IMG/VR virus record: IMGVR_UViG_3300024989_000226
Location: 1 to 49,613 of that record
Direction: 5' to 3' (one strand)
Length of the DNA stretch: 49,613 nt
Source of the DNA: a virus
Lineage: Duplodnaviria; Caudoviricetes
The translations under genes and the position numbers were made by a program. Of the stretch, positions 15,225-40,845 are shown one piece after another; positions within the stretch are counted from its first letter, which is position 1, and each line of letters starts with the position of its first letter. The notes below the pieces were generated by a model. It was not told the DNA's origin. It did no database searches and saw nothing but the letters and a program-made list of their open reading frames with translations.

Positions 15225-15387
15225 CGCACGGACGCGAGGCGGTAACAGCCGCCCCGCGTTCCTGTTACAATTCACCCCCTGGCAGCGCGCGAATCGATGA
15301 TTGTATGATGTGGATACGTAGAGAAGCTGTAACGACGGTGGCGCACCAGCCACAGTGGCTCTTGAGCCACTTCGTTGCCAAACTCAT

Positions 15388-15429
15388 GGTTCCTTCCCGG
15401 CAGGATCGTATGCGGGGGGCCAGCGCGCG
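15388..15429 (+). other. Candidate lambda-like cos site (cosQ/cosN-like)
   Basis: GGTTCCTTCCCGG...ATGCGGGGGGCCAGCGCGCG resembles lambda GGGTCCTTTCCGG...TTACGGGGCGGCGACCTCGCG; the phage has a GpA-type terminase. Confidence 0.5.
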
Positions 15430-15500
15430 ATAGGTCGCTAGCGTCAGCCCGCAAATTTGGTTCGCAGTTCGCAGCCACACCCATAATTCGGATGGTGCCC

Positions 15501-25421: not shown

Positions 25422-25625
25422 ATGGCCTGGACCACGCAGCAATTGGCCGCACTCGAGACGGCGATCGCCCAGGGCACCACTAGGGTCACCTTCGAGGGGC
25501 GCACCGTCGAATACCGCAGCCTGGCCGACATGATCCGGCTGCGCGACCTGATGCGGCGTGATCTCGGCGCCGCGTCACCGCCCGCCATCACCTATGCGGG
25601 CTTCTCCCGCGGAGACGGCACATGA
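25422..25625 (+). CDS. gpW-like head-tail joining protein
   Basis: LAALETAIAQGTTRVTFEGRTVEYRSLADM; directly before the portal. Confidence 0.85.
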   Translation: MAWTTQQLAALETAIAQGTTRVTFEGRTVEYRSLADMIRLRDLMRRDLGAASPPAITYAGFSRGDGT

Positions 25626-27145
25626 ACCTGTTGCAGCGGGTCTGGCAGGCGGCGCGCGGCCAGGCGGTGCCGGCGGCGACAGCACCGGCCATGCAGGCCG
25701 ACCGCGCCTATGCCGCCGCACAGGACGTGCGGACCTCACTGTGGAACCCATCCGGCAGTTCGGCCACCGCCGAGGTCGGCATGGGTGCCGCACCCATCGC
25801 CCGGCGTGCCCGCGACGCAGTGCGCAACGACCCCTACGCCGCCCGCATCGTCGACCTCTGGGCCGGCAACGCCGTCGGCGCCGGCATCACCACCCGCTGG
25901 CCCGACCGGCCGCATGCCGATGCCTGGCGAAGCTGGGCCGAGAGCACCGCCTGCGACGCCGAGCGCCGCCTCGACCTCTACGGCCTGCAAGCGCTGGTGA
26001 TGCGCGCCGTGGTCGAGAGCGGCGAATGCCTGGTGCGGCTGCTGCCCGGCGAGATCACGCCGGCCAACCCGATCGGCCTGCGGCTGCAGCTGCTGGAGAG
26101 CGACTATCTCGACACCACCCGCAACGGGCTGGTCGATGGCCAGGCGGTGGTGCAGGGCATCGCGCTGGACGATGCCGGCGCCCCCGCCGCCTACTGGCTG
26201 TTCCGCCAGCATCCCGGCGCCGCCTGGATCAGCCCGGGCCAGCGCGTGCGGAGCGAACCGGTGCCCGCCGCCGAGGTGCTGCATATCTACCGCAAGCGCC
26301 GGCCAGGCCAACTCCGGGACGTGTCCTGGCTGGCCCCGGTGCTGCTGCGGCTGCGCGATCTCGGCGACTACGAGGCGGCGCTGCTGATGAAGGCCAAGAT
26401 CGAGGCCTGCCTGGCCGCGGTGGTGACCACCGACAGCGACGACGCTGTCACCGGCGCCAGCACCAGCCTGCTGCGCGATGCCCAGGGCCGGGCGCTGGAA
26501 GCCTTCGAGCCGGGCATCATCCTCTACAACCGTGGCGCCGGTTCGGTGGAGGTGGTCAACCCCTCCGGCGGCGGCAGCCATACCGCCTTCGCCCGGCGCA
26601 CGCTGGAGGCGGCAGCGGTGGGTGCCGGCCTGACCTATGACCAGGTCTCCGGCGATCTCACCGCGGCGAACTACTCGAGCCTGCGGGCGGGCAAGATCGA
26701 GTTCCGCCGGCTGTGCGAGCAGGTGCAGTACGGCATGCTGATCCCGATGCTGGTGCGCCCGATCGCCGAGCGGTTCCACGCCCATGGCGCACTGGCCGGG
26801 CTGTGGGGTGCCGACATGCCCCATGGCGTCTCGCATGTGCCGCCGGCACACGAGATGATCGATCCGGCCAAGGATACTGCGGCGCTGGTCTCCCAGGTGC
26901 GGGCGGGCTTTGTGCCGCTGCCGGAGGCGGTGGCGTCGTTCGGCTACGACTTCCGCCAGGCGGTGGAGATGGTCAAGGAAGCCAACGCCGCGCTCGACGA
27001 TGCCGGCGTGTCGCTCGACACCGATCCGCGCCGGGTGGCTCGCAGCGGGGCGGCGCAGGACGCGGCACAGATGGCGGCCGTTGAGATTGCCGCGACCGGT
27101 GCGGCGATGCCACAGCAGCCGGACCAAACGGCCAGCGCTGGGTAG
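25622..27145 (+). CDS. Portal protein, lambda family
   Basis: RARDAVRNDPYA, RPGQLRDVSWLAP, GDLTAANYSSLRAG. Confidence 0.93.
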   Translation: MNLLQRVWQAARGQAVPAATAPAMQADRAYAAAQDVRTSLWNPSGSSATAEVGMGAAPIARRARDAVRNDPYAARIVDLWAGNAVGAGITTRWPDRPHADAWRSWAESTACDAERRLDLYGLQALVMRAVVESGECLVRLLPGEITPANPIGLRLQLLESDYLDTTRNGLVDGQAVVQGIALDDAGAPAAYWLFRQHPGAAWISPGQRVRSEPVPAAEVLHIYRKRRPGQLRDVSWLAPVLLRLRDLGDYEAALLMKAKIEACLAAVVTTDSDDAVTGASTSLLRDAQGRALEAFEPGIILYNRGAGSVEVVNPSGGGSHTAFARRTLEAAAVGAGLTYDQVSGDLTAANYSSLRAGKIEFRRLCEQVQYGMLIPMLVRPIAERFHAHGALAGLWGADMPHGVSHVPPAHEMIDPAKDTAALVSQVRAGFVPLPEAVASFGYDFRQAVEMVKEANAALDDAGVSLDTDPRRVARSGAAQDAAQMAAVEIAATGAAMPQQPDQTASAG

Positions 27146-27184: not shown

Positions 27185-27258
27185 AGTTCCGCAATAGAAG
27201 GAAAGCTGACATGGGGTACATGCCGCTCCAAGGGCGGCTAAGCGCCCAGTCCGGCCGT
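27185..27258. repeat. Two 28-bp 11-6-11 inverted-arm sites at the left border of island 1
   Basis: AGTTCCGCAAT-agaagg-AAAGCTGACAT (27185-27212); AGGGCGGCTAA-gcgccc-AGTCCGGCCGT (27231-27258). Confidence 0.55.
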
Positions 27259-27458
27259 TTGCCACTCATTGAGGCTTTCCTGAAAGCTGAATTGAGGGCT
27301 GTCGCCGCGCCTCACGCCTCCCAAAATACGTATACGGCACGCCGAACCTCACAGTCATCCCCTACTCCTCTGTGATGATCCGGCATCGAGCGGTGAATGG
27401 AACGAAAGACACAGAGCGGAGAAGGCATCAAACCGCGATAGGCAGGCGACCTAACTAA

Positions 27459-28331
27459 TTATATATTCTGTCCTCCGTACGGTACATGAATAGTCGCGCC
27501 GCCCCCAGGCATAGTCTTCGGAAAGTCGGGGTGCGACAATTGCTCAAACCATTCTCTCCGATATTCAATTCTTTCTGAAGGGCTAAGACTGTCTTCGTAC
27601 GTCCACGGTTCTTCTTGTAAAACAGTTGGGGTAAGCAAATCTATCGCGATGGATGCCGCTTTCGTGGCCGGGCTTTCGGCCAGTTGAAGAACATGCCTCG
27701 CGAGTTTATCGACCACAGTGCTTTGTACGAGTTCAATGGCTTTCTCAACTGTGGCGCTTCCAAGCTTACCCCATTCGACCGAGGCCAGAATATTAAGAGT
27801 CGCACCGGTGTCGTTCGATAGCGCGTGGTCTATTTGGTAGTTGGTGTCCGTTCGAAACTGTCCGCGAGTAAACTTCTTTTCAGCACCCACGTTAGCCCGC
27901 CAGGCCGAAGCAATTGGACTTTCGCCGTCGCTCAGGAACTTCCGACTTGGATTGTCAGCGGCATATGATGTTGCCGGCACTGAAAGAGTATCCGGAGGCT
28001 TCGCAGGTGTTCCGGTCGCCCGCAACAATACGCTATCAATCTTTTGTAGGCCGCAGGTAGGCGCGCGGAAAGCGGAACCTATCTGATCCTCGACTGCAGG
28101 GCTCCCGACATCTGACGGATCGGCCGTTTCCGAGGTAGGTCGTCCGGGAAAAGTTTCGTTCGCCGGGCTTTGCGGCGTCGCGGCCGGACTCTTGTTGTCG
28201 GCCTGCGGTGACGTTTCTATCGGGAATTCAGGGTCCGCGTGCGCATCCTTCCAATAGGCGAAATAGCAAAGCGTACTTGCTCCGAGTTTCAATACTTCTC
28301 GACGCCTAAAGGTCTTGGGACAGCTTGGCAT
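27459..28331 (-). CDS. Hypothetical protein with a twin-arginine-like signal
   Basis: TFRRREVLKLGASTLCYFAYWKDAHA, then a Pro/Ser/Thr linker; lower GC. Confidence 0.65.
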   Translation of the reverse strand: MPSCPKTFRRREVLKLGASTLCYFAYWKDAHADPEFPIETSPQADNKSPAATPQSPANETFPGRPTSETADPSDVGSPAVEDQIGSAFRAPTCGLQKIDSVLLRATGTPAKPPDTLSVPATSYAADNPSRKFLSDGESPIASAWRANVGAEKKFTRGQFRTDTNYQIDHALSNDTGATLNILASVEWGKLGSATVEKAIELVQSTVVDKLARHVLQLAESPATKAASIAIDLLTPTVLQEEPWTYEDSLSPSERIEYRREWFEQLSHPDFPKTMPGGGATIHVPYGGQNI

Positions 28332-28342
28332 GGGGCGCTCCG

Positions 28343-29815
28343 TCAGTCCGAGATGACCCACAAGTGCATCACCAGACCACTGACATCGCCTGCGGACTTA
28401 TCGAAGGCGCCCCGCACCCCCCATACTCCGGTCGGCCCGCCGTTCCAAAGCGCGTCAGAGTGTTGAGGCTTCAGGTCGAAAACTGATGCCGGACACACGC
28501 GTCCCACGGTCAGCCACTCGGAGCCGCCGGCAATGATCGCTCCTTGAGGCGGCGTGACTCTCACTGTCATTGGCCTCCGGTTGTCGCCGGTGAATTCGAA
28601 CCCTATGCCTCGTAATTTAGCCTTCGGCGCTGGCAGGTCCGCGTCGCTTACAGTAAATGATCCATTAAAGACGTCGAAGCCTGTTACTTTAGAGTCCCCT
28701 GGGATTAATTTTTCGCTCCAAATCGATGATATAGTGGTGCGCTGAGTTCGTTTGAATTTCGACAGCGCATTTCCAGCGTGAACGAGCCAAATTGCTATCT
28801 CATCAATCATTCCGCCGACATCGGGTGCACTGAAGGGGACCGCTAATCCGTAAATCTCACTCAGACCGCGATCTAACGCGCGCACGCGCTCAACGAGACA
28901 TCGGACGTTCTGATCAAACAACGCCTTCAGCCTTTGCAATTTCTCGCTGTAGTTTAGTTCCGATCCGATCCGGCAATGCTCATAAATCTGTAGCCACGCC
29001 AACTGCCTGCTAATCGCGGCTCTCTGCGTCCTAAAATCGACGTCCTTTCGAAAATAGTCCTCCTTTCTTTTTGCTATGCGCAGCTTCGCCTGAACCTGCG
29101 CGACGTTTGAGTTTGCCCCAGCCAGAACGTGCCGCCAGCTGGCCTGCTCTATATTGTTACGGTGCGCATTTGTAGCGATCGCCGTCCTTTCCATATCGTC
29201 GTAGTCGCGGGTGACAACATTCCTAGTGATCGCTCCATTTTGTTTTGCATTTAGATCCAAGGCGCCATCCGACAGAACGGCCGAGTACCTATGATCTTTC
29301 GCATCTGCTCGGAGCATTTCGTCACAAAGGGCCTCCTGCTCGGTCGCCCGAGCGAGGGCCGTCTCCAGCGCGATTTTCTCGTCGGCAGCTTCCAACCATG
29401 CTAGCTTATATAAGCCCGCTTCCACCTCGTCCAAATGCACCGCGTCGAGCCTTACAAATTCTTCGCCCTTAAACCGAGTATCGTTCCGCAGCCTCGCCAC
29501 CTCGCCGTATTGCTGTCGAATTTTTAGGCAGGCCTGAAGATACTGAGAGGTTTCATCGAAATTCAATTCGACACGCTGTACACCTATCAGTTCATCTTGC
29601 GGGACATCGGAAAAGACAATTGTCTCGAGATCCGGGACGATCGCTTGCGCGCCATCGTAAGTGTAGCAAGCACCCTTCACAGATTGCGGATCTGGCGCAT
29701 TCGATGCAATAAGCGCAGTAAACTGCTTCGCATCGCTGCGAATTCCGTTCAAATCGAGCCCGTACTGCTGTGCAAACGCGGCTTCGATGGTGGCCAAATC
29801 TGCCTGCGTAGGCAT
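28343..29815 (-). CDS. Hypothetical 490-aa coiled-coil protein with a beta-rich C-terminus
   Basis: Long ORF in the lower-GC island; GGAGG RBS. Confidence 0.8.
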   Translation of the reverse strand: MPTQADLATIEAAFAQQYGLDLNGIRSDAKQFTALIASNAPDPQSVKGACYTYDGAQAIVPDLETIVFSDVPQDELIGVQRVELNFDETSQYLQACLKIRQQYGEVARLRNDTRFKGEEFVRLDAVHLDEVEAGLYKLAWLEAADEKIALETALARATEQEALCDEMLRADAKDHRYSAVLSDGALDLNAKQNGAITRNVVTRDYDDMERTAIATNAHRNNIEQASWRHVLAGANSNVAQVQAKLRIAKRKEDYFRKDVDFRTQRAAISRQLAWLQIYEHCRIGSELNYSEKLQRLKALFDQNVRCLVERVRALDRGLSEIYGLAVPFSAPDVGGMIDEIAIWLVHAGNALSKFKRTQRTTISSIWSEKLIPGDSKVTGFDVFNGSFTVSDADLPAPKAKLRGIGFEFTGDNRRPMTVRVTPPQGAIIAGGSEWLTVGRVCPASVFDLKPQHSDALWNGGPTGVWGVRGAFDKSAGDVSGLVMHLWVISD

Positions 29816-29904
29816 GGAAGCCTCCCGAAGGTGACGGGCTAAACGCCAACACTGATACTGGCTGGCGTATCGCTAAAGCGGTAAGTTTTATAACCTAAAG
29901 TGAC

Positions 29905-30195
29905 TTATTGGCAGGCAACCTCGAATATGGCGTAACCGCAATGGCCGCCGCCTACGGTGCCTGGAAGCTGAGTAACCTTTGCTGGCTTAGAAGAGCCGTG
30001 CGCGCTACACCACATGTTTGCTCTGTTTTGTATTTCCGTGCAGTTTACAAAAGCATCGAAATTGCCGGGGCAAAGTGCCTTAGCACGCTCCTGCAACTCG
30101 CCCTCGCAAAATCTATACGTTCCCGCCGCCGATGCGGGGAGGTTAGCCAGGACGACCCCAGCAAACACGCTTGCGGTCACGATATGCCTAATCAT
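29905..30195 (-). CDS. Small secreted cysteine-rich protein
   Basis: Signal peptide MIRHIVTASVFAGVVLANLPASA; six Cys; GGGHCGYAIFEVACQ. Confidence 0.7.
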   Translation of the reverse strand: MIRHIVTASVFAGVVLANLPASAAGTYRFCEGELQERAKALCPGNFDAFVNCTEIQNRANMWCSAHGSSKPAKVTQLPGTVGGGHCGYAIFEVACQ

Positions 30196-30420
30196 TTCGT
30201 TCCACCTTCGAGCGAAATTTTGTTTATGGAAGACGTATACGATCGCCTTTATGCCGCGTTTGACAGTGGGTACGTTGACAGATTTTGGTAACTTCCGCAA
30301 TGAAAAAGGGTGGCCACGAACAGCATGCTTCCACCTTGGACGGCAGCTTCGCGTTCCCGCTCATCTTATCCTTGCCATTCCGCTTACGGCCAGATTCGGT
30401 CATTAGAGCGGAGTCCGTAA

Positions 30421-30448
30421 AGGTCAACGTTGGTTCGGAACCCGACCT
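30421..30448. repeat. 28-bp 11-6-11 site at the right border of island 1
   Basis: AGGTCAACGTT-ggttcg-GAACCCGACCT. Confidence 0.5.
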
Positions 30449-30516
30449 ATATTCCTGACGCGAAACAGCGCGCCGCACAAAAGCAAGTCGTCAACCCTAA
30501 CCGCAGAGCTAAACTC

Positions 30517-32673
30517 ATGACCGATTCCATCGATCCGGGCGGGAGCAATCCCGCACCGGCGATACCGCATGACGGCGGTGGTTCCACCGCTGGGACAACC
30601 ATGACCGCGGCGCGCGCTCTCGCGGCCCCGGCCACCGTCGATCGTGCCGCTCGTACCGTCGAGGTGGTTTGGTCGACCGGAGCGCGGGCTCGCAACTTCG
30701 TGCCGCCGCTCGGCATGATCACCGAGGAATTGGACATGTCGCCGTCAGCCGTCCGCATGGACGGGCTGCGCAGCGGCAGCGCCCCGGTGCTCAACACCCA
30801 CCGCAAGGCCGATGCGCGCGACGTGGTCGGCCGGGTCGTCGCCGCCCAGCTCGAGGCGGGCCGCGGCCACGCCACGCTGCAGTTCTCTGCTGCCGCAGAT
30901 GTCGAGCCGCTGTGGCAGCGCGTCGCCGACGGCACGCTGCGCAGCGTCAGCGTCGGCTACCGCGTGCATCGCTACGACCAGGTCACCGATCCCGCCGACG
31001 GCATCGTCCACCGCGCCGTCGATTGGGAGCCCTACGAGATCTCCGTCGTGCCGATCCCGGTCGATCCGGCCGCGGCGATGCGCGGCGCGGACGATCCAAC
31101 CGCGCCCGCCACGGCGGTTGAGCCGACCCTGCCGATCCTCGACACACCAACCAATCCCACTACCACCCAGGAGACTCCCATGCCCGAGACGACGCCGGTT
31201 GCCCCGGTTGCTGATCCGGCGCCGTCCGCGCCGGCTGCCACCCCCACCCGCAGCAATCCCGCACAAGCCGCCCAGGAGGGCGCTCCGACCATGCCGAACA
31301 ACCCGCCACCTGCCGCTGACGCCGATCGTGGCACGGTCGCCGTTCCGCCCGGCGAAGCCGCCGCCGAGGTGATCCGCGCCGAACGCGCCCGCATCGCCGC
31401 CCTCGGTCCGGTCGCCCAGGCCGGCCGCGCCCTGGTGGCGCCGGCCACCGTCGACGCCCTGCACCAACGTGCCGTCGCCGAGGGCTGGGCGCCCGAGGCC
31501 CTGCGTGGCGCCCTGTGGGACGCCATGGTGCAAGGCGCCACCCCGCCGGCACTGCCCGCCTCGCCGAACAGCGGCCCCGCCGCCGAAGACCCGGCCGTCA
31601 TCCGCGACGCCATGGCCGAAGCCATCGCCGTGCGTGCCATGCCCGGCTACCAGGCACCCGGTGGTGCCACTGGCGGCCGCCATGCCGAGTTCCTGGACTG
31701 GCGTCCCTCCGAGATGGTCGCCGAACTGATGCGCGCCCGCGGCGAGCGCAATATCCCCCGCGGTGCCGCCGCCCTGGCGGATCGTGCCTTCCACACCACC
31801 AGCGACTTCCCGCTGCTGCTCTCGGCCGCCGCCAACAAGATGCTGCTCGCCGCCTACCAGCCGGCCAACCCGACCTACCGGCAGTTCTTCCTCCGCCGCG
31901 ACTTCCGCGACTTCAAGCCGCATCGCCATCTGCGGGTCGGCGACTTCCCCACCCTCGTCCAGCTCTCCGAGAACGGCGAGATCCAGGCCGGCACCATGTC
32001 CGAGAGCCAGGAACTGGTGAACCTGCTCACCTTCGCCCGACGCATCCGCGTCACCCGCCAGATGCTGGTCAACGACGATCTCGGCGCCTTCACCGACTTC
32101 GCGGCCATGATCGGCCGCCGCGTTGCCGATTTCGAGAACGCTACCGCCTACGCCCTGATGAACAGCGCCAACGGCTCCGGCCCGACCCTGGTCACCGGCA
32201 ATGCCGCGGTGTTCGCCACCGGCGCCGCCCGCGCCAACCAGGCCTCGGCCGGCACCGCGCTCGACCTCACCAACCTGGCCCTCGGCCGCGCCGCGGTGAT
32301 GAAGCAGAAGACGCTGGACGGGCTGCCGATCTCGGTGGGCAACGGCATGCGGCTGCTGGTCGGGCCGAACCTGGAGCTGGCAGCGCGCCAGCTCACCGTG
32401 AGTGTCGCCGCCACCCAGACCGCCAATGCCAACGTCTATGCCGGTTTCATCCAGCCGGTGGTCGAGCCGCAGATCCAGGGCAACCGCTGGTATCTGTTTG
32501 CCGACCCGATGGCGGCACCGGTCTATGTCTACGGCTACCTCAACGGCGCCGAGGGGCCGCAGGTCACCACCGGGCCGGTCTCCGGCGTCGATGGCGTCGA
32601 GGTCTCGGTGATCTTCGACTTCGGGGTCGGCGCCATCGACTGGCGCGGCGCCTGGTTCAACCCTGGCACCTGA
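30517..32673 (+). CDS. Prohead protease-major capsid fusion protein
   Basis: PVLNTH, SVSVGYRV, WEPYEISVVPIPVDP (protease); HTTSDFPLLL..DFGVGAIDWRG (capsid). Confidence 0.92.
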   Translation: MTDSIDPGGSNPAPAIPHDGGGSTAGTTMTAARALAAPATVDRAARTVEVVWSTGARARNFVPPLGMITEELDMSPSAVRMDGLRSGSAPVLNTHRKADARDVVGRVVAAQLEAGRGHATLQFSAAADVEPLWQRVADGTLRSVSVGYRVHRYDQVTDPADGIVHRAVDWEPYEISVVPIPVDPAAAMRGADDPTAPATAVEPTLPILDTPTNPTTTQETPMPETTPVAPVADPAPSAPAATPTRSNPAQAAQEGAPTMPNNPPPAADADRGTVAVPPGEAAAEVIRAERARIAALGPVAQAGRALVAPATVDALHQRAVAEGWAPEALRGALWDAMVQGATPPALPASPNSGPAAEDPAVIRDAMAEAIAVRAMPGYQAPGGATGGRHAEFLDWRPSEMVAELMRARGERNIPRGAAALADRAFHTTSDFPLLLSAAANKMLLAAYQPANPTYRQFFLRRDFRDFKPHRHLRVGDFPTLVQLSENGEIQAGTMSESQELVNLLTFARRIRVTRQMLVNDDLGAFTDFAAMIGRRVADFENATAYALMNSANGSGPTLVTGNAAVFATGAARANQASAGTALDLTNLALGRAAVMKQKTLDGLPISVGNGMRLLVGPNLELAARQLTVSVAATQTANANVYAGFIQPVVEPQIQGNRWYLFADPMAAPVYVYGYLNGAEGPQVTTGPVSGVDGVEVSVIFDFGVGAIDWRGAWFNPGT

Positions 32674-32679
32674 TCCCGG

Positions 32680-33012
32680 TCAGCCAAAGCCCAGGAACAC
32701 CGCCAGGCTGCGGTTCAGCGCGACCAGTTCTTCGTCGCTGAGCCGCCCCAGCGTCTGCCCCACGCGCTCGCGTCGCACCGCGGTGATCTTCTCCACCGCA
32801 ATATGGCTCGGGTTGGTGAGGCCACTGGCCGGGCCTGGCGCGACCGCGATCCGCAGCAGCGGTGCGCCGGTCGGTTGCGTGGTCAGCAGGCAAACCACGA
32901 CCGAGCCGGTGTCGTCGAACAACTCGGACTGCACGACCACGGCCGGCCTTGGCTTGCCGCCATAATCGCCGGCCGCCCGGTCGGCGATGACGACGACATC
33001 ACCGCGGCGCAT
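32680..33012 (-). CDS. PemK/MazF-family toxin
   Basis: MRRGDVVV..GDYGGKPRPAVVVQS..LAVFLG. Confidence 0.9.
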   Translation of the reverse strand: MRRGDVVVIADRAAGDYGGKPRPAVVVQSELFDDTGSVVVCLLTTQPTGAPLLRIAVAPGPASGLTNPSHIAVEKITAVRRERVGQTLGRLSDEELVALNRSLAVFLGFG

Positions 33013-33238
33013 CAGCGGCCGTGTCGTCATCCTCATCGAACACCGAGACCGCTTCGATGAAGTCCATCACCTCGTCAAAGTCGGCTTCGGCGGCGACCAG
33101 GCGTGACTGCCGGCGCGCCTCCTCAGCAAAACCCGGCGCCCGCGTGTCCGGCACCCAGATCTGGATCGGCCGCAGACCCTTCGCACGCAACTGCGCGCGG
33201 TGGGTGGCGACGCGTTTGCTGGTGGTCGAGCGGGCCAT
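32999..33238 (-). CDS. DUF3018/MazE-like antitoxin
   Basis: RVATHRAQLRAKGLRPIQIWVPDTRAPGFAEEARRQS; GGAGG RBS; overlaps the toxin. Confidence 0.88.
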   Translation of the reverse strand: MARSTTSKRVATHRAQLRAKGLRPIQIWVPDTRAPGFAEEARRQSRLVAAEADFDEVMDFIEAVSVFDEDDDTAADAPR

Positions 33239-33256
33239 CTGATCCTCCATCCGGGT

Positions 33257-33268
33257 GTTACATGTAAC
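33257..33268. promoter_or_regulatory. Perfect palindrome, probable toxin-antitoxin autoregulatory operator
   Basis: GTTACATGTAAC lies 19-30 bp upstream of the antitoxin ATG. Confidence 0.65.
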
Positions 33269-33345
33269 GCTTCGGCGGCGGCACTTCAAGCCTCGCCCCC
33301 CGTCCCGCCAGCAGGCGAGACCCATTCCTCACCAGGAGCCTTCCC

Positions 33346-33693
33346 ATGAAGAACTTCATCCAGCCGGGCGACAGCCTGGCCATGGTCGTGCCGTATGCCG
33401 CCGGCGTCACCGCCGGCCAGGGCATGCTGGTCGGCGCGCTGTTCGGCGTGGCCGCGGTCGATGGCGCCCAGAACGCGGTGATCGAGGGCGCCACCGAAGG
33501 CGTGTTTGACCTCACCAAGCAGCCATCCCTGGCGATCACCGCCGGTGCGAGGGTGTTCTGGGACGACACCAACCGCCGCATCACCACCACCGCCACCGGC
33601 AACTATCAGGTCGGCATCGCGGTGCTGGCCTCTGCCACCTCCGACACCACGGTGCGGGTGTGGCTGGAGCGCGTGCCGGCGTCCGGCGCATGA
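33346..33693 (+). CDS. DUF2190-family (capsid cement-like) protein
   Basis: MKNFIQPGDSL..GALFGVA..EGVFDL; AGGAG RBS. Confidence 0.85.
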   Translation: MKNFIQPGDSLAMVVPYAAGVTAGQGMLVGALFGVAAVDGAQNAVIEGATEGVFDLTKQPSLAITAGARVFWDDTNRRITTTATGNYQVGIAVLASATSDTTVRVWLERVPASGA

Positions 33694-34295
33694 GCAGCGG
33701 CGTGGGCGTGGGTGCGGTGGACACCGACGTCGTGTTCCGCCGCGTGATCGACAGCGTCATCGGCCGGGAGGGGCGATATTCCGCCGACCCGGCCGACCGC
33801 GGCGGCGCCACTGCCTGGGGTATCACCGAAGCGGTGGCGCGCGCCGAGGGCTGGACCGGCGCGATGGCCGAGCTGCCACGCGAGGTGGCGGTCAGCATCT
33901 ATCGCCGCCGCTACTGGCAGGCACCGGGACTGGACCGCATCGCCATGCTCGACACGGTGCTCGCCGAGCGGCTGCTCGACATCGGCGTCAACATGGGTGC
34001 CGCCACCGGCATTCGCTTCCTGCAGCGAGCGTTGAACGTGCTGAACCGGCAGGGCGCGGCATTCGCCGATATCGCGGTGGACGGCGCGTTCGGTCCGGCG
34101 ACCGAGACGGCGCTCGCGGGCCTGCTGCGGGCCCGGGGTACCGAGGGTGCTCGCGTGCTGCGCGGCATGATCGCGGCGCAACAGGCGGTCCGCTACATCG
34201 AGATCGCCGAGCATGACCCGACCCAGGAAGAATTCGAGTTCGGCTGGCAGCTGAACCGGGCGCTCGGCGGTCTCACCCCTGGTTCTCCAGCCTGA
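33690..34295 (+). CDS. Endolysin, glycoside hydrolase family 108 with peptidoglycan-binding domain
   Basis: REGRYSADPADRGGATAWGIT, DIGVNMG, QEEFEFGWQLNR. Confidence 0.9.
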   Translation: MSSGVGVGAVDTDVVFRRVIDSVIGREGRYSADPADRGGATAWGITEAVARAEGWTGAMAELPREVAVSIYRRRYWQAPGLDRIAMLDTVLAERLLDIGVNMGAATGIRFLQRALNVLNRQGAAFADIAVDGAFGPATETALAGLLRARGTEGARVLRGMIAAQQAVRYIEIAEHDPTQEEFEFGWQLNRALGGLTPGSPA

Positions 34296-34377
34296 TCCGC
34301 CGCCCGACGCCAGCCAGGCATCCGCCCGGCCACCCACCCTTCCGCCCCGACAACCTGATCCGACCGGAGGAACACCG

Positions 34378-34884
34378 ATGTTCCCCTTCCTGATCCCGCT
34401 GCTCACCAACGTGGCGCCGGGCCTGATCTCCTATCTGTTCGGCACCGCGGCCGGCGAGACCACCAAGCAGGTGGTCGACGTGGTCCGCCAGGTCACCGGC
34501 ATCGATGTCCGCTCCCAGGACGACGCCCAGAAGGCACTGGCCGCGGTGCAGGCTGATCCAGCCGTCTACGCCCAGTTGCAGACTCGTCTGGCAGAGATCC
34601 AGGCCGAGCGGGACCGGGCGGCAGCCGACATCATCCGGGCCGAGGCGCAGTCGGGCAACTGGCTGGCTGCGTCCTGGCGTCCCATCGTCATGCTGACCTT
34701 CACCGTGCTGATCGTCGCCCGCTGGCTCGGCTTCTCTGCCCCCGGCATCTCGGAGGCCGAGGTGCTCAAGCTGTGGGACATCGTGCAACTGGGGCTCGGT
34801 GGCTACGTCATCGGCCGCAGCGCCGAGAAAATCGTGCCGCAGATCGCCCAGGCGGTTGCCGGTAGCCTGGGCGGCCGGCGATGA
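34378..34884 (+). CDS. Holin, 3TM GTA-holin-like
   Basis: AEAQSGNWLAASWRPIVML..LGLGGYVIGRSAEK; adjacent to the endolysin. Confidence 0.82.
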   Translation: MFPFLIPLLTNVAPGLISYLFGTAAGETTKQVVDVVRQVTGIDVRSQDDAQKALAAVQADPAVYAQLQTRLAEIQAERDRAAADIIRAEAQSGNWLAASWRPIVMLTFTVLIVARWLGFSAPGISEAEVLKLWDIVQLGLGGYVIGRSAEKIVPQIAQAVAGSLGGRR

Positions 34885-35219
34885 GCGCCTTCGCGGGCGC
34901 CATGGCGGTGCTGCTGGCCGATCCGAATATCGATGGCGATGCCCAGTATCGCCGGGCGACCGGCGACTGGGCCGCTCTGCGGGTGGTGCGGTCGGCGCCG
35001 TATGACCAGTTGCCGGGTCTCGGCGGCGGCGCGAGCAGCCGGGCCGGCAGCCTTTCGGTCACCATCGCTGCCGACGCCCTGGCCTCGCTCGGCATGCTGC
35101 CGCCGCAGCGCGGCGACGAGGTGCTGCTCTCTAGCAGCGCCTACCGCGTCGAGGATGCCGAGGCCGACGTGCTCGGCGTCACCTGGCGGCTGACCTTGGC
35201 AACGGCGCCAGCGCCATGA
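34881..35219 (+). CDS. Head-tail joining protein (gpFII-like)
   Basis: Size and position; PQRGDEV..YRV. Confidence 0.65.
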   Translation: MSAFAGAMAVLLADPNIDGDAQYRRATGDWAALRVVRSAPYDQLPGLGGGASSRAGSLSVTIAADALASLGMLPPQRGDEVLLSSSAYRVEDAEADVLGVTWRLTLATAPAP

Positions 35220-35668
35220 GCACGGCACTGCGTGAGGCGGCGCTGGCCGCCGTCGCCGCCCGGCTCGCAGCCGCGCTGCCCGACGCGGTGGTCGAGCGGG
35301 CCCGACGCGCGCCGGTCGATACCGACACCGAGGCGCTGCCGCGACTGATCCTGCGCGGGGAGGCCTGGCAGGCCGATACCACCCAGGAGCCGGGGCAGAC
35401 CCACTACAGCATTGGCTTCGCCATCACTGGCTTCGTCCGCGCCGGCAGCGATCTCGCCGCCGAGCAGGCGCTGTCCGACCTGCATGCCCGTATCGTCGCG
35501 GCGCTGGCCGGCTGGACCCCCGACACCCCAGGCCTCGGCGATGTGGTCGAGCAGGATGCCGACTTTCTGCTCTACGACGCCGAGGACAGCGCCAAGCCGA
35601 CCGGCGAGGTGGTGGCCCGGTTCTCCCTGCTGGCAATCGCCCCAACCGGATCACCCTGGGCACCGTAG
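35216..35668 (+). CDS. Tail terminator/completion-like protein
   Basis: REAALAAVAARL..LPRLIL; directly before the tail tube gene. Confidence 0.6.
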   Translation: MSTALREAALAAVAARLAAALPDAVVERARRAPVDTDTEALPRLILRGEAWQADTTQEPGQTHYSIGFAITGFVRAGSDLAAEQALSDLHARIVAALAGWTPDTPGLGDVVEQDADFLLYDAEDSAKPTGEVVARFSLLAIAPTGSPWAP

Positions 35669-35720
35669 CAGACCCATTCCCTCCGCCATTCCTGGCCGCC
35701 ATTCCTGAAGGAGCCGCACG

Positions 35721-36887
35721 ATGAGCATCAGCCTCGTCCGCATGCGCTTTGCCGCCGTCGCGGCCAAGATCGAGACCACCCCCGGCACCGACGCCATCGC
35801 CGGCACTCCCGCCGCCGCCGACTGGCTCGCCGCCGATTGCGAGATCGACTTCGATCCCGTCGTGGTCGAGAACCCGGAACTCACCGGCACCCTCGACAAG
35901 GCCTCCGGCATCGTCGGCGGCCTGCGCCCGCGCATCCGCCTGCGCGTCCCGCTGCGCGGCTCCGGCACCGCCGGCACCGCGCCCGATTGGGGCAAGCTGA
36001 TGCGCTGCTGCACCATGCTGGAGCAGGTCACCGCCGCCCCCATCGGCGTCCCGACCGCCGCCACCGCCGGCACCGCCACCAGCATCACCCTGCCCACCCC
36101 GTTCTCGCCGGCGGCGCAGGCCTATCGCGGCATGCCGCTGCTGCTCTCCGGCGACCGCAGCATCACCACCGGCATCATCGACTACACCACCGGCAAGGTC
36201 GCCAGCGTGGGGGATACGCTCAGCCCCACCGCCGGCGTCGTCACCCTGGCGCAGATCCCGGTCAACGTGCTCTACGCCCCCACCTCGGATGAGACCCTCT
36301 ACAAGACCGCCACGCTCTACTTCTACGCCGACGGGCTGAGCTGGCGCTTCGGCGGTGCCCAGGGCACCTGGAGCCTGGAACTCACCTCGGGTGGCATCGG
36401 CTTCCTGACCTTCGATCTGCGGGCGCAGATGCTGGCGATGACCGGGGCACCACTGCCGACCGGTTGGAACAGCGCGATCCGCCCGACGCCACCGCGCTTC
36501 GTCAACGGCCGCTGCCAGCTCAACCGCGCCGTGGCGCAGTGCCGCCGGCTGCAGCTCGACCTCGGCGTCGAGGTGATCCTGCCGGACAATCCGGAATCGC
36601 TCGAGGGCTACGACCCGGCGGTGCCGATCTCGCGCGACGGGCGCGGCAACATCGATCCCTACATGAACACCACCAACGCGGTGGCGCTCTACGATGCCTT
36701 CCGCGCCGGCACGCCGATGCCGCTGATGGCGGTGGTGGGCGTCTCCGCCGGCAACCGCTTCCTGATCACCGCCCCGGCCGCCCGGGCCACCGGCTTCAAG
36801 CCCGGCAACCGCGACGGCCTCGGCCAGCACGACATCGCCTTCCAGTGCGATGGCGCCGACAGCGTCATCTTCCTCGCAACGTTCTGA
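35721..36887 (+). CDS. Major tail tube protein
   Basis: AAKIETTPGTDA..LRGSGTAGTAPDWGKLMRCC; AAGGAG RBS; precedes the chaperone. Confidence 0.75.
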   Translation: MSISLVRMRFAAVAAKIETTPGTDAIAGTPAAADWLAADCEIDFDPVVVENPELTGTLDKASGIVGGLRPRIRLRVPLRGSGTAGTAPDWGKLMRCCTMLEQVTAAPIGVPTAATAGTATSITLPTPFSPAAQAYRGMPLLLSGDRSITTGIIDYTTGKVASVGDTLSPTAGVVTLAQIPVNVLYAPTSDETLYKTATLYFYADGLSWRFGGAQGTWSLELTSGGIGFLTFDLRAQMLAMTGAPLPTGWNSAIRPTPPRFVNGRCQLNRAVAQCRRLQLDLGVEVILPDNPESLEGYDPAVPISRDGRGNIDPYMNTTNAVALYDAFRAGTPMPLMAVVGVSAGNRFLITAPAARATGFKPGNRDGLGQHDIAFQCDGADSVIFLATF

Positions 36888-36904
36888 CGGAGGCACCCCC
36901 GAAC

Positions 36905-37495
36905 ATGACCCAGCCGATCTTCTCCCGCCGTCAGGTGGAGAGCTTCATCCCGCCCGGCACCGAGCGCGTCTACTCCATCGCGCCGCTCACCTTCCGCGAG
37001 CGCCAGGCATTCCGCGCCGACCTGGCGCGTGAGGCCGGGGTGTATCCTGGCCGTGCGCTGCTGCTCGATGCGCTGCGGGCCGCGGTGCAGGAGACCTCGC
37101 CGGACAACGCGGCGGAGATCCTGGTGGTGATTGAGGCCGCAGAGGCGACGCCGGATGACCCTGCGGCGCAGGCACGGCTGCAGACGATTGAGGCGGCCTG
37201 CGCCACGGTGCCGAGTTACGCCGCGTTGCTGGCGGCCCGGCAGCACTATCTCGGCATGATGCCCTGGGTCGCCGCCCGCCACGCCCTGCGCGGCTGGGAG
37301 GGACCGGGGCTGCCGCCGTTCCGGCGCGAGCGCAACCTGGTGCCGGCCGATCTTCTCGACCTGTTGCCGGACGCGGAACTCGAGGCGATCGGCTGGCAGG
37401 CCAGTGCACTGATGCAGCCGGACGCGGCCGCCCAGGGAAACTCCGAGGCGCCCTCGCCGTTGCCCGAGACCCCGGCGCCTATGACGGTGGGCTGA
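36905..37495 (+). CDS. Tail assembly chaperone (gpG-like)
   Basis: GGAGG RBS; follows the tube gene; slippery site near its 3' end. Confidence 0.75.
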   Translation: MTQPIFSRRQVESFIPPGTERVYSIAPLTFRERQAFRADLAREAGVYPGRALLLDALRAAVQETSPDNAAEILVVIEAAEATPDDPAAQARLQTIEAACATVPSYAALLAARQHYLGMMPWVAARHALRGWEGPGLPPFRRERNLVPADLLDLLPDAELEAIGWQASALMQPDAAAQGNSEAPSPLPETPAPMTVG

Positions 37496-37734
37496 AACCC
37501 GCCGACGGCAGCGAATGGCTGGTGGCCGGCGAGGCGTGGGCGGACAATCCGCGCCATGTCGTGCCGCAGCCCTGGCACGAGTTCGTGCGGATGTGGGGGG
37601 CGTGCCAGGGCGGCATGGGGGGCGTGGCGCATTGGCCGGATGGCGGGGGAGTCGGGGATCAGGCGGCCTGGGTGGTGGAGGCGTTCGCGCTTCTCGGGGG
37701 GCTGCTGGGGAAGGTGCGGTGCATCGCTGCATAG
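37435..37734 (+). CDS. gpGT-like C-terminal extension reached by -1 frameshift
   Basis: G-GGA-AAC at 37435-37441 is in the correct phase; the -1 frame is open to TAG at 37734. Confidence 0.75.
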   Translation, partial: GKLRGALAVARDPGAYDGGLKPADGSEWLVAGEAWADNPRHVVPQPWHEFVRMWGACQGGMGGVAHWPDGGGVGDQAAWVVEAFALLGGLLGKVRCIAA

Positions 37735-37843
37735 CTGCCGTTCGCACACGAGCGAACGCTCAGTCGCCTAACGCATGGCCGGTTCTCCGCGATGTGCAAG
37801 GCGCTGGGTGCACCGCGGTTCACCAGCCGCTATTATCGAACAC

Positions 37844-38671
37844 ATGCACAACGAGATCTACCGACGCTTCGGTGAAGTCCGCGCCGCCGCAGATGCGGTT
37901 GGACAGCTGATGCCATACAACTGGATCGCTATGCCGGAGCGGCTTTATGCGGCGTGGATGCCGTATTCGATGATGCTTGACGACTTCGCCCGCGAACTGG
38001 CGAACTCCATCAACGCATTCACCCTTAACGTCCAGCGGCTGTCCGCGTGGGCAACCCTGATGACCTCGCTCGGCGAAGAGGAGAGGGCCGAGGCGCTGCA
38101 CGAGTTCATCGATCCCATCGCGACGCTATCTCTGCTGATGCCCTACGCTATCCGGTCGCGGCTGCTATTCGCGACGGCCCATCTATGCCATCAGGTCAAT
38201 CTGGTGAGGGAAACAGACTGGGCGGAAGCCTCGCTCCCCGTCGATGACAAGATCTGGATGGACAGTGCAGATCGGCAGGGCGCGCGGTGGCGGAATTACA
38301 ACCGACTGAAGACGCGCATCGAGGCCATTGGGGGTAAACGGCTAGCGCAGGCCACCACCAATTTCCGCAACACGTTCACGCACCGCTTCTCACCGCGCGT
38401 CGGGACAGGCATCACGAACTTCGCGACCAGGTGCTTTGACCCGGCCACCGGAAAGGCCTGCTACTCGTTCGGTGGGACCGAGCCGCTCGACTTGAAGGAG
38501 CTTACCGCGCTTCTCGTCGTCGAACTCGACCGGTGCTACGCTGCCTTCGCCGCGTTTCAGGTGCTTGTCGGTGATCAGGTCGCCTATGTCACCGAGAAGA
38601 ACTCTGAGATGCTAGCCACGATCGATCGCGACCCCGCCGCCGGTCCGGCTGTGGAGACCGGCTCGGCCTAG
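37844..38671 (+). CDS. Hypothetical helical protein with a HEPN-like RxxxxH motif
   Basis: FRNTFTHRF (38366-38383); accessory position in the tail operon. Confidence 0.65.
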   Translation: MHNEIYRRFGEVRAAADAVGQLMPYNWIAMPERLYAAWMPYSMMLDDFARELANSINAFTLNVQRLSAWATLMTSLGEEERAEALHEFIDPIATLSLLMPYAIRSRLLFATAHLCHQVNLVRETDWAEASLPVDDKIWMDSADRQGARWRNYNRLKTRIEAIGGKRLAQATTNFRNTFTHRFSPRVGTGITNFATRCFDPATGKACYSFGGTEPLDLKELTALLVVELDRCYAAFAAFQVLVGDQVAYVTEKNSEMLATIDRDPAAGPAVETGSA

Positions 38672-38693
38672 CCCCGTTGCCACAGCGCGCTGC

Positions 38694-38774
38694 CTGGCAG
38701 CTCGCGACCCAAGCCAGTCATCGGAGAATTACGCCGCGGATCACCAAAAGCAGCCATGCGCCAGATCCGACCGT
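38694..38774. repeat. Two 28-bp 11-6-11 sites between the island 2 genes
   Basis: CTGGCAGCTCG-cgaccc-AAGCCAGTCAT (38694-38721); AAAGCAGCCAT-gcgcca-GATCCGACCGT (38747-38774). Confidence 0.55.
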
Positions 38775-38983
38775 TAGCGGCTCTGAGCCCAGAGGGTCGT
38801 TCCGCAAGTATGCGCTGATTTCCAAGAACTGACGTTGCGTTGAACAGATTCGCCGGCTGTTGTAGCTTCCAGATTGTCGCTGCTAATTGGATAATGGTTC
38901 GTAATCGCTACAGCATCTGAGTCATGCACGCTGGTGACGTCAATGTGGGTCATTGCGGAGCGCGACGTAGGAGATCGCTTCCG

Positions 38984-40522
38984 ATGACCGAGCCACCACG
39001 CATCCTGACCGCCTCGTCGTCCGAGCACATGCTTGTCGAGCGAATCGCCGCTCAAGAACGGCAGATCGCCTATGACAGTCTTGCTCCGTATGAGCCGCGT
39101 TCCGCGACCTACGCGTGGTTCGATACGCTGCGGGCGATCGAAGAGTGCATCAACTTGATAAACGTGGATTGGGATGACGATGAATTTGAGAAGCGACTAT
39201 TCTCCCTGCCGCTCAGCTCGTGCGTCGGATTTAGTCCGAAATTTGACCTCGTGCGCCAGCGCTTCATCGCACAGTTCAGCGAGAATTTCGCCAATCGTTT
39301 TACCAATCTAGTAAGGTATGGCGCGGGTGCTGCGACAGCCTTCGGCGCGCATGGATTCTTTAAGATCGCTGCGGCTTTCAGCACTGTCGGATCGATGATT
39401 GACTATCTCCAATCGCGACGGCGCCATTTTATAGCTCTACTTCACATGATTCCGCAGGCGTGTTGCGGCGATAAGGTCGTTATCCCTTACGACGCGCTCC
39501 TTGTTTTCCTACCGATGATTGAGCTTACCGGCATTCAATTGAGAAGTGCACAAAACGCGCTGAACGTGAAACTGTCCCGTGCGAAGCTCGGTTTGCCGCA
39601 ACGGGATTCTGCCGAGCTTGCGATGCTTGATCCGCTTCATCTTGAGCCCGAACGGGCGCCGATCACCAGTATGACCGTAACCGGCGAGGCCCTCACTATG
39701 TGGGATGGCAGAGAAGCGCTAAGTCCAGATCGGCTCTTTTCCGCCGCGGAGCTCCGAAACGATGTGCTTTTAATCGAAAGCGCCTATGCCGAGTTCGATC
39801 TCAAGGAAACCGATTTTGCACCTGCTGCGGGACTAATCCGCCGACTGTCCATGACCTTCATCGATCGGGACTTCTGGGTTGTCGTCCCCCCTGATGACCT
39901 TGCGGCTCTCTTCGACGAATTTAAGGCATCTTCGGATCTGCGATCGGCATTTCTACACACGGGCCAGACTTATTTGGAATGTCTATCCACCTATGCTCCA
40001 TTCGTGGTTGTCGATGGCGTCTATAGGTCTACCGTCACGCTCTTGAGCCGCTTCATCTACTACTGGCGCGGTCGTAGCCTCGATCGCCGAAAGCGTTTCC
40101 AGATCCGCGCCGGATTCATATTTGAAAGAGCGGTCGCCAACGAGCTGGAGCGGCAGAAGTTCGTTGTGCAAAACGTCCGGCGTATTAATCGACGTGAGTT
40201 CGACGTCGTGACGGTGCGTAACGGGGTAATCTGGAATGTCCAATGCAAAAACAATTTTATGGATCTCGATCAACTCGAATCAGATGCCACGCGCTTCGCG
40301 AAATATAATTATAGGCTGGTGCGGGCCTATGAAGGCGCGCTGACGAAAGAGCGGAACCGCGAGTACCTGCTGAGGGAGAAGCTGTCGTTGAATGAGGTGC
40401 AGCACATGGTTGTGTCGCGCTTTCCGGTCGTTACTGACAATGCGAGGTTTGTGCCGTATAGCCGCATAACGGATTTCGCTAAAATTGCCGATGCTGTGAT
40501 GGCTCATAACGCGGCCTCTTAG
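38984..40522 (+). CDS. Hypothetical protein with a C-terminal PD-(D/E)XK (NERD-like) nuclease domain
   Basis: GFIFERAVANEL..REFDVV..NVQCKN; AGGAG RBS; lower GC. Confidence 0.75.
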   Translation: MTEPPRILTASSSEHMLVERIAAQERQIAYDSLAPYEPRSATYAWFDTLRAIEECINLINVDWDDDEFEKRLFSLPLSSCVGFSPKFDLVRQRFIAQFSENFANRFTNLVRYGAGAATAFGAHGFFKIAAAFSTVGSMIDYLQSRRRHFIALLHMIPQACCGDKVVIPYDALLVFLPMIELTGIQLRSAQNALNVKLSRAKLGLPQRDSAELAMLDPLHLEPERAPITSMTVTGEALTMWDGREALSPDRLFSAAELRNDVLLIESAYAEFDLKETDFAPAAGLIRRLSMTFIDRDFWVVVPPDDLAALFDEFKASSDLRSAFLHTGQTYLECLSTYAPFVVVDGVYRSTVTLLSRFIYYWRGRSLDRRKRFQIRAGFIFERAVANELERQKFVVQNVRRINRREFDVVTVRNGVIWNVQCKNNFMDLDQLESDATRFAKYNYRLVRAYEGALTKERNREYLLREKLSLNEVQHMVVSRFPVVTDNARFVPYSRITDFAKIADAVMAHNAAS

Positions 40523-40817
40523 AAGACCGCTAGTCGTGACTGTTCCCAAATCGACAGGCGCACCATTTTCACTGCCGGCGCCTACGCCGGGCGTGCCTGT
40601 GGTCTTCACACAGATCAGCCGCTCGCTTCGATCCGGACTTGCCGCGCAGCCTAAACAACCCTTCTGTTGGGCTGAAGAATTCGGAAACTTGAGGCATCTA
40701 CGTGACCTCGTAATGGATGCAATATCATTTCATTTTGACGAAAACGGGACGGCGCTTGCCGCCAATCTCGGCGGCTGCTCAATGTCGGATTTCTTGCCCA
40801 CTCGTACAGGGAACGGA

Positions 40818-40845
40818 TGGGCAGAAATCCACCCATAGCTGACCT
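40818..40845. repeat. 28-bp 11-6-11 site at the right border of island 2
   Basis: TGGGCAGAAAT-ccaccc-ATAGCTGACCT; the right arm is nearly identical to ATAGCTGCCGT at 37731-37741. Confidence 0.6.

What the first reader, a model, noticed from the sequence alone, without database searches (positions are those of the whole stretch)
27185..40845. Degenerate 28-bp 11-6-11 sites bracket the accessory islands: candidate cassette-capture system
Seen: related sites with two 11-bp imperfect inverted arms around a 6-bp spacer. 27185 AGTTCCGCAAT-agaagg-AAAGCTGACAT; 27231 AGGGCGGCTAA-gcgccc-AGTCCGGCCGT; 30421 AGGTCAACGTT-ggttcg-GAACCCGACCT; 38694 CTGGCAGCTCG-cgaccc-AAGCCAGTCAT; 38747 AAAGCAGCCAT-gcgcca-GATCCGACCGT; 40818 TGGGCAGAAAT-ccaccc-ATAGCTGACCT. 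There is also a right-arm-only copy ATAGCTGCCGT at 37731 and a weak copy at 29858. Rough consensus: NNGKCNGCWWT-N6-AWWSCNGMCNT. The copies I found lie within about 110 bp of island/phage-gene junctions or between cargo genes, often in pairs. Known: 11-6-11 is the geometry of tyrosine-recombinase core sites such as dif, but these arms do not match E. coli dif and lack attC structure. Inference: cargo genes move as site-bounded cassettes using a recombinase acting in trans, since none is encoded here. This would be an integron- or pdif-like moron-swapping system.
Basis: partly seen in the sequence, partly recalled or inferred. Interest (0 to 1): 0.88.

Follow-up and report, generated by a model that had tools for sequence, protein, structure and literature searches.

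The report
Recombination sites bounding prophage cargo cassettes
Short palindromic DNA sites mark the edges of two blocks of foreign genes in this prophage; they belong to a widespread site family at which other phages and islands have swapped genes, likely cut by a small, unstudied recombinase that this host does not carry, which would give phages a gene-swapping route other than integrons.

Summary
The sites are real. A model trained on other DNA ranks 40818, 27185 and a missed site, 30376, first to third in the window. Seven hits fall in the island junctions, against 0.14 expected. They are worn copies of a widespread 11-6-11 palindrome (consensus ATGTCCGCTTT-N6-AAAGCGGACAT) that also brackets fun(Z) in phage P2. 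In 28 groups of loci sharing one flank, identity runs through the 6-bp spacer and drops at the far arm, as site-specific exchange predicts. Sites sit at fixed positions beside a roughly 200-residue tyrosine recombinase with a full catalytic set. That gene was not found in this host, so these islands are likely frozen. The sites are neither attC nor pdif. Most likely this is a pdif-like module-exchange system with two spacer classes and its own enzyme. No activity is shown. This scan has reported the same system before on other DNA, some notes later marked in doubt. The P2 repeat is in print (2004, recalled); I found no paper naming the enzyme.

The parts
25622..27145 (+). Phage portal gene, left neighbour of island 1; its C-terminus looks intact
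   Evidence: PF05136; C-terminus compared with 24 relatives
27185..27212 (.). Site, strong. Spacer agaagg, read by me as a worn class B spacer (inferred). Outer left edge of island 1
   Evidence: rank 2, 0.03 expected; exact match to the scan pattern
27231..27258 (.). Site, class A spacer gcgccc, 46 bp after 27185
   Evidence: rank 7; same 46-bp B/A doublet in same-family loci L310 and L315
27459..28361 (-). Cargo ORF, 300 aa, no family found
28343..29815 (-). Cargo ORF, 490 aa; 33 other homologues, unnamed or called hypothetical
29905..30300 (-). Small cargo ORF, no family found; gene call uncertain
30376..30403 (.).
   Evidence: rank 1 and rank 3, 0.05 expected
30421..30448 (.). Site, class B-like spacer ggttcg. 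Outer right edge of island 1
   Evidence: rank 13, weak alone
30517..32673 (+). Prohead protease-major capsid gene, right neighbour of island 1
   Evidence: capsid PF25209; start matches relatives; the protease part is my reading of the sequence
37522..37734 (+). Small conserved tail-region gene. It ends 5-11 codons earlier than in relatives, and its stop codon lies inside the arm at 37731
37731..37741 (+). Lone arm (half-site) at the left junction of island 2
   Evidence: arm rank 4; full site not supported; same arm in the site at C25:139998
37844..38671 (+). Cargo ORF, 275 aa, mainly helical bundle with invariant R175 and H180 (an R-x4-H motif; HEPN-like by recalled motif). Not a recombinase
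38694..38721 (.). Site, class B spacer cgaccc, between the two cargo genes
   Evidence: rank 10, weak alone
38747..38774 (.). Site, class A spacer gcgcca, 53 bp after 38694. Its left arm also reads as the right arm of an overlapping weaker site at 38730
   Evidence: ranks 12 and 25; arm rank 2
38984..40522 (+). Cargo ORF, 512 aa; homologues in alpha-, beta- and gammaproteobacteria; NERD/Upx-like nuclease is a lead only
40782..40836 (.). Inverted repeat overlapping the left arm of the 40818 site
   Evidence: z -2.8 and -3.4
40818..40845 (.). Site, strongest, class B spacer ccaccc. Outer right edge of island 2
   Evidence: rank 1, 0.02 expected
40912..41646 (+). DUF6441 tail-region gene, right neighbour of island 2
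372..1826 (-). Large serine recombinase, likely the prophage integrase; not the candidate enzyme
   Evidence: PF00239 and PF07508

Best explanation
The motifs are worn copies of a widespread 28-bp palindromic site that marks exchange points between cargo genes and their hosts, and they are likely the targets of a small (about 200-residue) tyrosine recombinase that recombines two sites only when their 6-bp spacers match. Shown: the site family, its position at cargo edges, breakpoints at the spacer, two spacer classes (A: gtgcca/cggcca; B: gagcga in enterobacterial-type loci, cgaccc/ccaccc in GC-rich loci), and fixed linkage to the recombinase gene. Inferred: the enzyme binds both arms as a homotetramer. 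A cassette bounded by one A and one B site would be swapped for another by two crossovers through a cointegrate, as pdif modules are. A circle carrying linker, A site, cargo and B site would be added by one crossover, giving tandem arrays. Island 1 reads B (27185), 46 bp, A (27231), cargo, B (30421), which is the product expected from such an addition, with one extra A-type site at 30376. Island 2 looks like a direct array of B sites and fits less cleanly. The enzyme gene was not found in this host and the sites are decayed, so these islands were likely acquired earlier or in another host and are now frozen.
For: Independent model puts the outer island edges first; 7 junction hits against 0.14. 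Family found at 81 viral stretches and on both sides of P2 fun(Z). Breakpoints: 28 shared-flank groups, mean identity 0.91 in the near arm, 0.92 in the spacer, 0.69 in the far arm (background 0.50-0.53), falling from 0.94 to 0.63 and 0.49 at the first two far-arm bases; spacer identity at least 0.83 in 25 of 28. Same cassette in two slots (L093, L166) and same slot with two cassettes (L093, L101). Recombinase: sites recur at about -667 and at +17 or +28 from its stop in viral loci. In 80 metagenome loci not used for training, a site lies upstream in 25 of 66 and downstream in 25 of 74, at 1.86 per kb just after the stop against mostly 0.1-0.6 per kb further away. R, K, H-x-x-R, H and Y are at least 90% conserved in 101 aligned members. 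Doublet spacings in the window (46, 45, 53 bp) match the family's 45-46 and 52-53 bp. A held-out site cluster brackets other cargo on the same contig. Only 22 of 105 strong sites lie in long ORFs that cover 70% of the DNA.
Against: No activity data. Empty relatives carry no site: 0 of 39 portal-protease gaps under 50 bp, 0 of 3 empty tail junctions, and 0 of 13 other traG loci, so first entry is unexplained. Enzyme not found in G000 and found in only 18 of 151 family genomes. Most breakpoint groups are from AT-rich, enterobacterial-type loci: 5 of 28 have a GC-rich lead locus, and none involves this window. Only 4 of 21 homologues of the 512-aa cargo have a site within 250 bp. About two thirds of the recombinase flanks have no site at 11 bits. 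Four of the window's seven sites are at chance level alone, and the broad model's training set is about a quarter noise (95 shuffled hits against 352). Island 2 orientation does not fit the A-to-B pattern. In GC-rich loci, direct B-B pairs are as common as A-to-B pairs (16 each).
Confidence: 0.66

Rival explanations
1. The sites are real recombination sites, but a host enzyme (a divergent XerC/XerD or another resident tyrosine recombinase) acts on them, and the small recombinase is a passenger or accessory factor.
For: The host has nine PF00589 matches and lacks the small enzyme. 75 of 150 other family genomes match a loose site pattern (a count that includes chance matches), while 18 carry the enzyme. 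pdif modules work this way (PMC13141974, passages).
Against: The arms match the printed pdif arms at only 4-10 of 22 positions, and the window has no XerD arm within 2 mismatches. The family's arms are symmetric, as for a single protein. Sites sit at fixed offsets from the small gene, whereas the host's nine other recombinase loci have only four scattered hits in three loci. The host's own dif was not identified, so this rival is not excluded.
Confidence: 0.14
2. The palindromes are protein-binding or repeat elements that travel with accessory genes, and the swaps come from phage-encoded homologous recombination across the shared 28 bp.
For: Sites are short, conserved and often clustered. Some overlap hairpins. 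Empty alleles have no site.
Against: Identity falls sharply at the spacer/far-arm boundary instead of fading across the site, and partners share the spacer. Copy number is low, with a few strong hits per genome, unlike REP-type repeats (recalled).
Confidence: 0.12
3. In this window the sites are passengers: each island came in as one block copied from a site-bearing island elsewhere by illegitimate recombination, and the phage never used the sites. This is compatible with the family being a real system.
For: 40 bp and 68 bp of unassigned DNA lie between the outer sites and the phage genes at island 1, and 66 bp at the right of island 2 (sequence). The small tail gene is shortened at the junction. 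No site in empty relatives.
Against: Sites or arms lie within 70 bp of all four outer junctions, which a random block would not give.
Confidence: 0.3
4. Chance matches in lower-GC junction DNA.
For: Four of seven sites are weak alone, and genome-wide counts at 11 bits are close to shuffled counts (255 against 197).
Against: Composition-matched shuffles of the same zones give 0.14 against 7 observed, and three sites have an expectation of 0.05 or less.
Confidence: 0.02

Closest known systems
Inverted repeats of the Z/fun region of P2-like coliphages (Nilsson, Karlsson and Haggard-Ljungquist 2004, Mol Biol Evol 21:1)
   Same: The same motif brackets P2 fun(Z), at 15333 (spacer gtgcca) and 17430 (spacer tcgctc). 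The Z-region is described as a hotspot of accessory gene cassettes citing that paper (PMC13748975, passage).
   Different: The paper is not held. I saw only its title in two reference lists and two citing sentences; that it describes a roughly 30-bp repeat and names no enzyme is recalled. Here the site is in a lambdoid prophage of a 70% GC host, with different spacers, and is tied to a candidate enzyme.
pdif (dif) modules of Acinetobacter plasmids, moved by XerC/XerD
   Same: 11-6-11 sites, modules between sites, recombination between identical or near-identical 6-bp spacers, and single-module replacement through a cointegrate (PMC13141974, passages).
   Different: The arms are unrelated to the XerC and XerD boxes and are symmetric. 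Direction comes from the spacer, not from two different arms. The likely enzyme is mobile and patchy instead of a core host pair.
Integrons (IntI, attI, attC)
   Same: Arrays of one-gene units beside a tyrosine recombinase, with a variable next gene after the enzyme's downstream site.
   Different: No attC core pair in the six junction zones (core motif recalled). The three doublets fold no better than shuffles. No Rfam match. The enzyme scores 18 bits on the integron integrase model against a cut-off of 265.
FimB/FimE-type short tyrosine recombinases; engineered cassette exchange with Cre or Flp and unlike spacers
   Same: About 200 residues, catalytic domain only (FimB/FimE size recalled). 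Exchange between unlike site pairs is the logic of engineered RMCE (recalled).
   Different: Only 18-19 bits on the invertase models against cut-offs of 221-222. The best solved-structure match is XerD at E 4e-6.

Membership tests
P2 Z-region repeat family | Same arm consensus and 6-bp spacer | tested here: met
   One model scores both P2 sites and the window's 27185 and 30376 as the top hits
P2 Z-region repeat family | Sites at both ends of variable cargo | tested here: met
   Island 1 on both sides; island 2 has a full site on the right and a lone arm on the left
P2 Z-region repeat family | Identity with the repeat as printed in the 2004 paper | not testable with these tools
   Paper not held
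pdif modules | 11-6-11 geometry | tested here: met
pdif modules | XerC and XerD binding arms | tested here: not met
   4-10 of 22 matches to the arms printed in PMC13141974; no XerD arm within 2 mismatches
pdif modules | Likeness to the host's own dif | tested here: inconclusive
   Host dif not identified; best genome match 15 of 22
pdif modules | Exchange between matching spacers | tested here: met
   25 of 28 groups with spacer identity of at least 0.83; shown in other loci, not in this window
Integron | attC core pair and folded bottom strand | tested here: not met
   No core pair; doublet z from -0.58 to 0.61
Integron | IntI integrase | tested here: not met
   No PF00589 match on contig C25; candidate far below the IntI cut-off
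Tyrosine recombinase (candidate enzyme) | Catalytic R, K, H-x-x-R, H and Y | tested here: met
   At least 90% conserved in 101 aligned members, which were picked by two of these motifs; aligned to XerD
Tyrosine recombinase (candidate enzyme) | Recombines these sites | not testable with these tools
   Needs an assay
HEPN RNase (cargo 37844-38671) | R-x4-H motif on a helical bundle | tested here: inconclusive
   R175 and H180 invariant in 50 sequences; fold hits are generic bundles, with HEPN chains at Z 7.6-8.1 among them; no Pfam match

The most novel reading that the evidence does not exclude
A cassette system spanning proteobacteria, separate from integrons and Xer/pdif: a minimal tyrosine recombinase and two spacer classes of one palindromic site perform natural cassette exchange, stocking prophages, conjugative elements and islands with defence-type genes. 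It would supply the missing enzyme for the P2 Z-region hotspot.
Probability: 0.55. Interest if true: 0.85.

Novelty: new variant of a known kind. Interest (0 to 1): 0.62.

Why it matters
How phages swap single accessory genes at fixed hotspots is largely unexplained. A named site, a spacer rule and a candidate enzyme make that directly testable with a two-plasmid assay. The site model is also a way to find cargo boundaries, and so candidate defence genes, in genomes. About 14,000 stored metagenome stretches were estimated to hold a pattern match to the enzyme, so the system would be common. This window adds a GC-rich, lambdoid example without the enzyme. It also shows that empty relatives hold no site, which any model of first entry must explain.

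Tried and rejected
Site left at the empty locus: not found; these relatives are 76-83% identical in portal protein, so not the direct ancestor. Of 70 closed portal-protease junctions, 6 scored 11 or more: L039 (spacer gagcga, 32 bp into a 1.2-kb low-GC insert), four copies of one sequence before a conserved phage gene, and one inside an ORF. DNA relatives of the islands: only identical copies and coding-region matches among the loci held, and three short chance-like matches in 200 genomes of the order. The 298-aa ORF had no match in 400 class genomes, and the 490-aa ORF only an identical viral contig. Excised forms: 8 of 20 runs laid, contigs only, no joint at any site among the rows shown (14 and 22 rows not shown); this shows nothing about rare events. 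attC-like folding of the doublets rejected. The 'integrase' label on three homologues of the 275-aa cargo rejected: helical-bundle model, no match to the recombinase profile, no significant Foldseek hit. No PADLOC match for the five window cargo ORFs. Displacement of the portal 3' end by island 1 considered and not supported. 29858 rejected as a site. Literature: nine searches gave listings with no paper on this site-enzyme pair. I read passages of PMC13141974, PMC13748975, PMC6379469, PMC3091744 and PMC2647930 only; no supplements. Most subscription papers are not held, so absence from print is not shown.
Full report
Setting. The window is part of a lambdoid prophage: serine recombinase, terminase, portal, capsid, tail tube and tape measure genes. 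It lies at G000:C25:67060-116672 in a genome of 70% GC. Two low-GC islands interrupt the structural genes: about 27.15-30.5 kb between portal and protease-capsid, and about 37.7-40.9 kb between two tail-region genes. None of the genome's nine PF00589 matches is on this contig.

The observation. Leave-one-out recovered 40818, 27185 and 27231, left 30421 borderline, and did not recover 38694 or 38747. It also turned up a held-out site at C25:139998.

The family. A pattern built from the best window arms matched 81 stretches of viral contigs, 63 distinct contexts among 102 matches. The consensus is ATGTCCGCTTT-N6-AAAGCGGACAT with a strongly non-random spacer. I trained a model on these and on further loci, leaving out window DNA, P2 and the cargo homologue loci. 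It holds 352 sites, with 95 hits in shuffled DNA at the same threshold. In the window it ranks 40818, 27185 and a new site at 30376 first to third, and 27231, 38694, 38747 and 30421 at 7 to 13. It rejects 29858 and a full site at 37714. Seven of the top 13 lie in the junction zones; shuffled zones gave 0.14 on average and never more than 2 in 2,000. Genome-wide the model is only modestly above chance (35 against 18 at 15 bits), so the site is low-copy in this host. The held-out site and a weaker one at C25:143587 bracket three cargo genes between a VirD4-type gene and a truncated relaxase. In P2, the two best hits flank fun(Z).

Breakpoints. Among 584 sites I looked for pairs that share one flank and not the other. 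There were 178 pairs in 28 groups. Identity is 0.91 in the arm beside the shared flank, 0.92 in the spacer and 0.69 in the far arm, against a background of about 0.5. It drops at the first base of the far arm. L093 and L166 hold the same cassette in different slots; L093 and L101 hold different cassettes in the same slot. In these loci one end always has spacer gtgcca and the other gagcga, in inverted order. That is the pattern of spacer-dependent site-specific exchange. Most groups are AT-rich, enterobacterial-type loci. Five have a GC-rich lead locus, one of them in a genome of the host's family (L315). None involves this window.

The candidate enzyme. A short tyrosine recombinase lies beside a site in L117. 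In its viral relatives, sites recur at about -667 and at +17 or +28 from the stop, with a different gene after the downstream site in most distinct loci. In most of the 20 copies from the host's family, the stop is followed by a hairpin, a spacer and one arm; I read this by eye, and only one scored as a full site there. In 80 metagenome loci outside the training set, 25 of 66 upstream and 25 of 74 downstream flanks hold a site at 11 bits, a several-fold local excess. The catalytic residues are conserved, and 98 of 101 members are 196 residues from the first conserved motif. It passes no NCBIfam cut-off. It was found in 18 of 151 family genomes and 2 of 41 relatives, and not in G000 by protein or by six-frame profile (genome 98.7% complete).

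Architecture here. In GC-rich loci the spacers fall into class A (cggcca, gggcca, gcgcca) and class B (cgaccc, tgaccc, ccaccc). Long pairs are A-to-B inward (16) or direct B-B (16), and doublets are often 45-46 or 52-53 bp apart. The window's doublets are 46, 45 and 53 bp apart. Island 1 reads B, 46 bp, A, cargo, B, if the worn spacer at 27185 is class B (my inference). The same B/A doublet occurs in L310 and L315, and L312 and L315 show genes separated by direct B sites. Island 2 reads lone arm, gene, B, 53 bp, A, gene, B, all in one direction, and fits the simple model less well. The small tail gene is cut short at the lone arm.

Results against. Empty relatives keep no site: 39 of 70 portal-protease junctions have gaps under 50 bp and none of these scores 9 or more; 3 of 5 tail junctions are empty and site-free, and the other 2 hold 1-kb inserts without sites. 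Of 14 traG loci only the host's has sites. Only 4 of 21 homologues of the 512-aa cargo have a site within 250 bp, although 4 of the 5 hits in those loci are that close. No close relative with other cargo was found. No excision joint was seen in the contigs of 8 runs, which is uninformative for rare events.

Mechanism. Shown: site family, position at cargo edges, spacer-centred breakpoints and linkage to the enzyme gene. Inferred: the small recombinase acts on the sites, like spacers recombine with like, two crossovers swap a cassette and one crossover adds one. The pdif literature describes the same two-step replacement through a cointegrate (PMC13141974, passages). First entry into a site-free target is unexplained; it may use a chance half-site, as the junction at 37731 hints. 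With no enzyme and worn sites, these islands are likely inactive now.

Comparison. Not pdif, not attC, not IntI. It works like pdif modules and matches the repeats at the P2 Z-region. The 2004 paper on that region is not held; I saw its citation only and recall the rest. Nine literature searches found no paper on the site-enzyme pair.

Earlier notes of this scan. They report the same sites and enzyme on other DNA, six of them marked in doubt with no reason given. They gave me the lead to look for a small recombinase. I tested the linkage and the breakpoints myself and do not count the notes as support. There were no notes for this genome.

Cargo. No Pfam or PADLOC family for the five ORFs. The 275-aa protein has an invariant R-x4-H on a helical bundle. 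The 512-aa protein leans towards NERD/Upx-like clusters. Defence is plausible and untested.

Verdict. A real feature and a credible, testable system, partly in print as a site and already seen by this scan. Interest 0.62; new variant of a known kind.

Noticed in passing
L002:9776-16160 (G000:C25:137775-144159): Conjugative-element remnant: MFS, SDR and LysR genes between a VirD4-type gene and a truncated relaxase, with site clusters at both ends and a strong hairpin made of two inverted half-sites (z about -3.7). Thirteen other traG loci have no site within 400 bp.
   Followed up: partly
L002:3586-5355: dCTP deaminase defence gene (PADLOC dCTPase, E 6e-147) in a low-GC block with no site nearby.
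   Followed up: no
L001:6820-10478: Low-GC two-gene block just beyond the window; the 975-aa ORF has weak PADLOC matches (LeoBC E 2e-5, PDC-M09A).
   Followed up: no
L029, L035, L038, L047, L049, L054 and others, portal-protease junction: Many related phages carry a conserved GC-rich 400-490 aa gene between portal and protease, with no sites; others carry unrelated low-GC inserts. The junction is a hotspot by more than one route.
   Followed up: no
L039, 32 bp after the portal stop: A site with spacer gagcga (14.4 bits) at the edge of a 1.2-kb low-GC insert in a related phage.
   Followed up: no
L303:7915-12196: Tandem duplication of the small recombinase unit (94.5% identical proteins) with direct class B sites, in a genome of the host's family.
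   Followed up: partly
window 37652-37700 and L002:17041-17089: A 49-bp piece of the small tail gene recurs (88% identity) 40 kb further along the contig, next to a serine recombinase fragment.
   Followed up: no
window 28343-29815: The Atlas puts a cluster in which 13% of members carry PF18276 at rank 4 (score 0.90); a weak lead only.
   Followed up: no
window 15375-18333: Two adjacent N6/N4 DNA methylase genes, one with a ParB N-terminal domain.
   Followed up: no
upstream of the small recombinase (L335, L340, L357, L379): A second site 52-53 bp inside the upstream B site, with an unrelated spacer; possibly an operator for self-repression.
   Followed up: no
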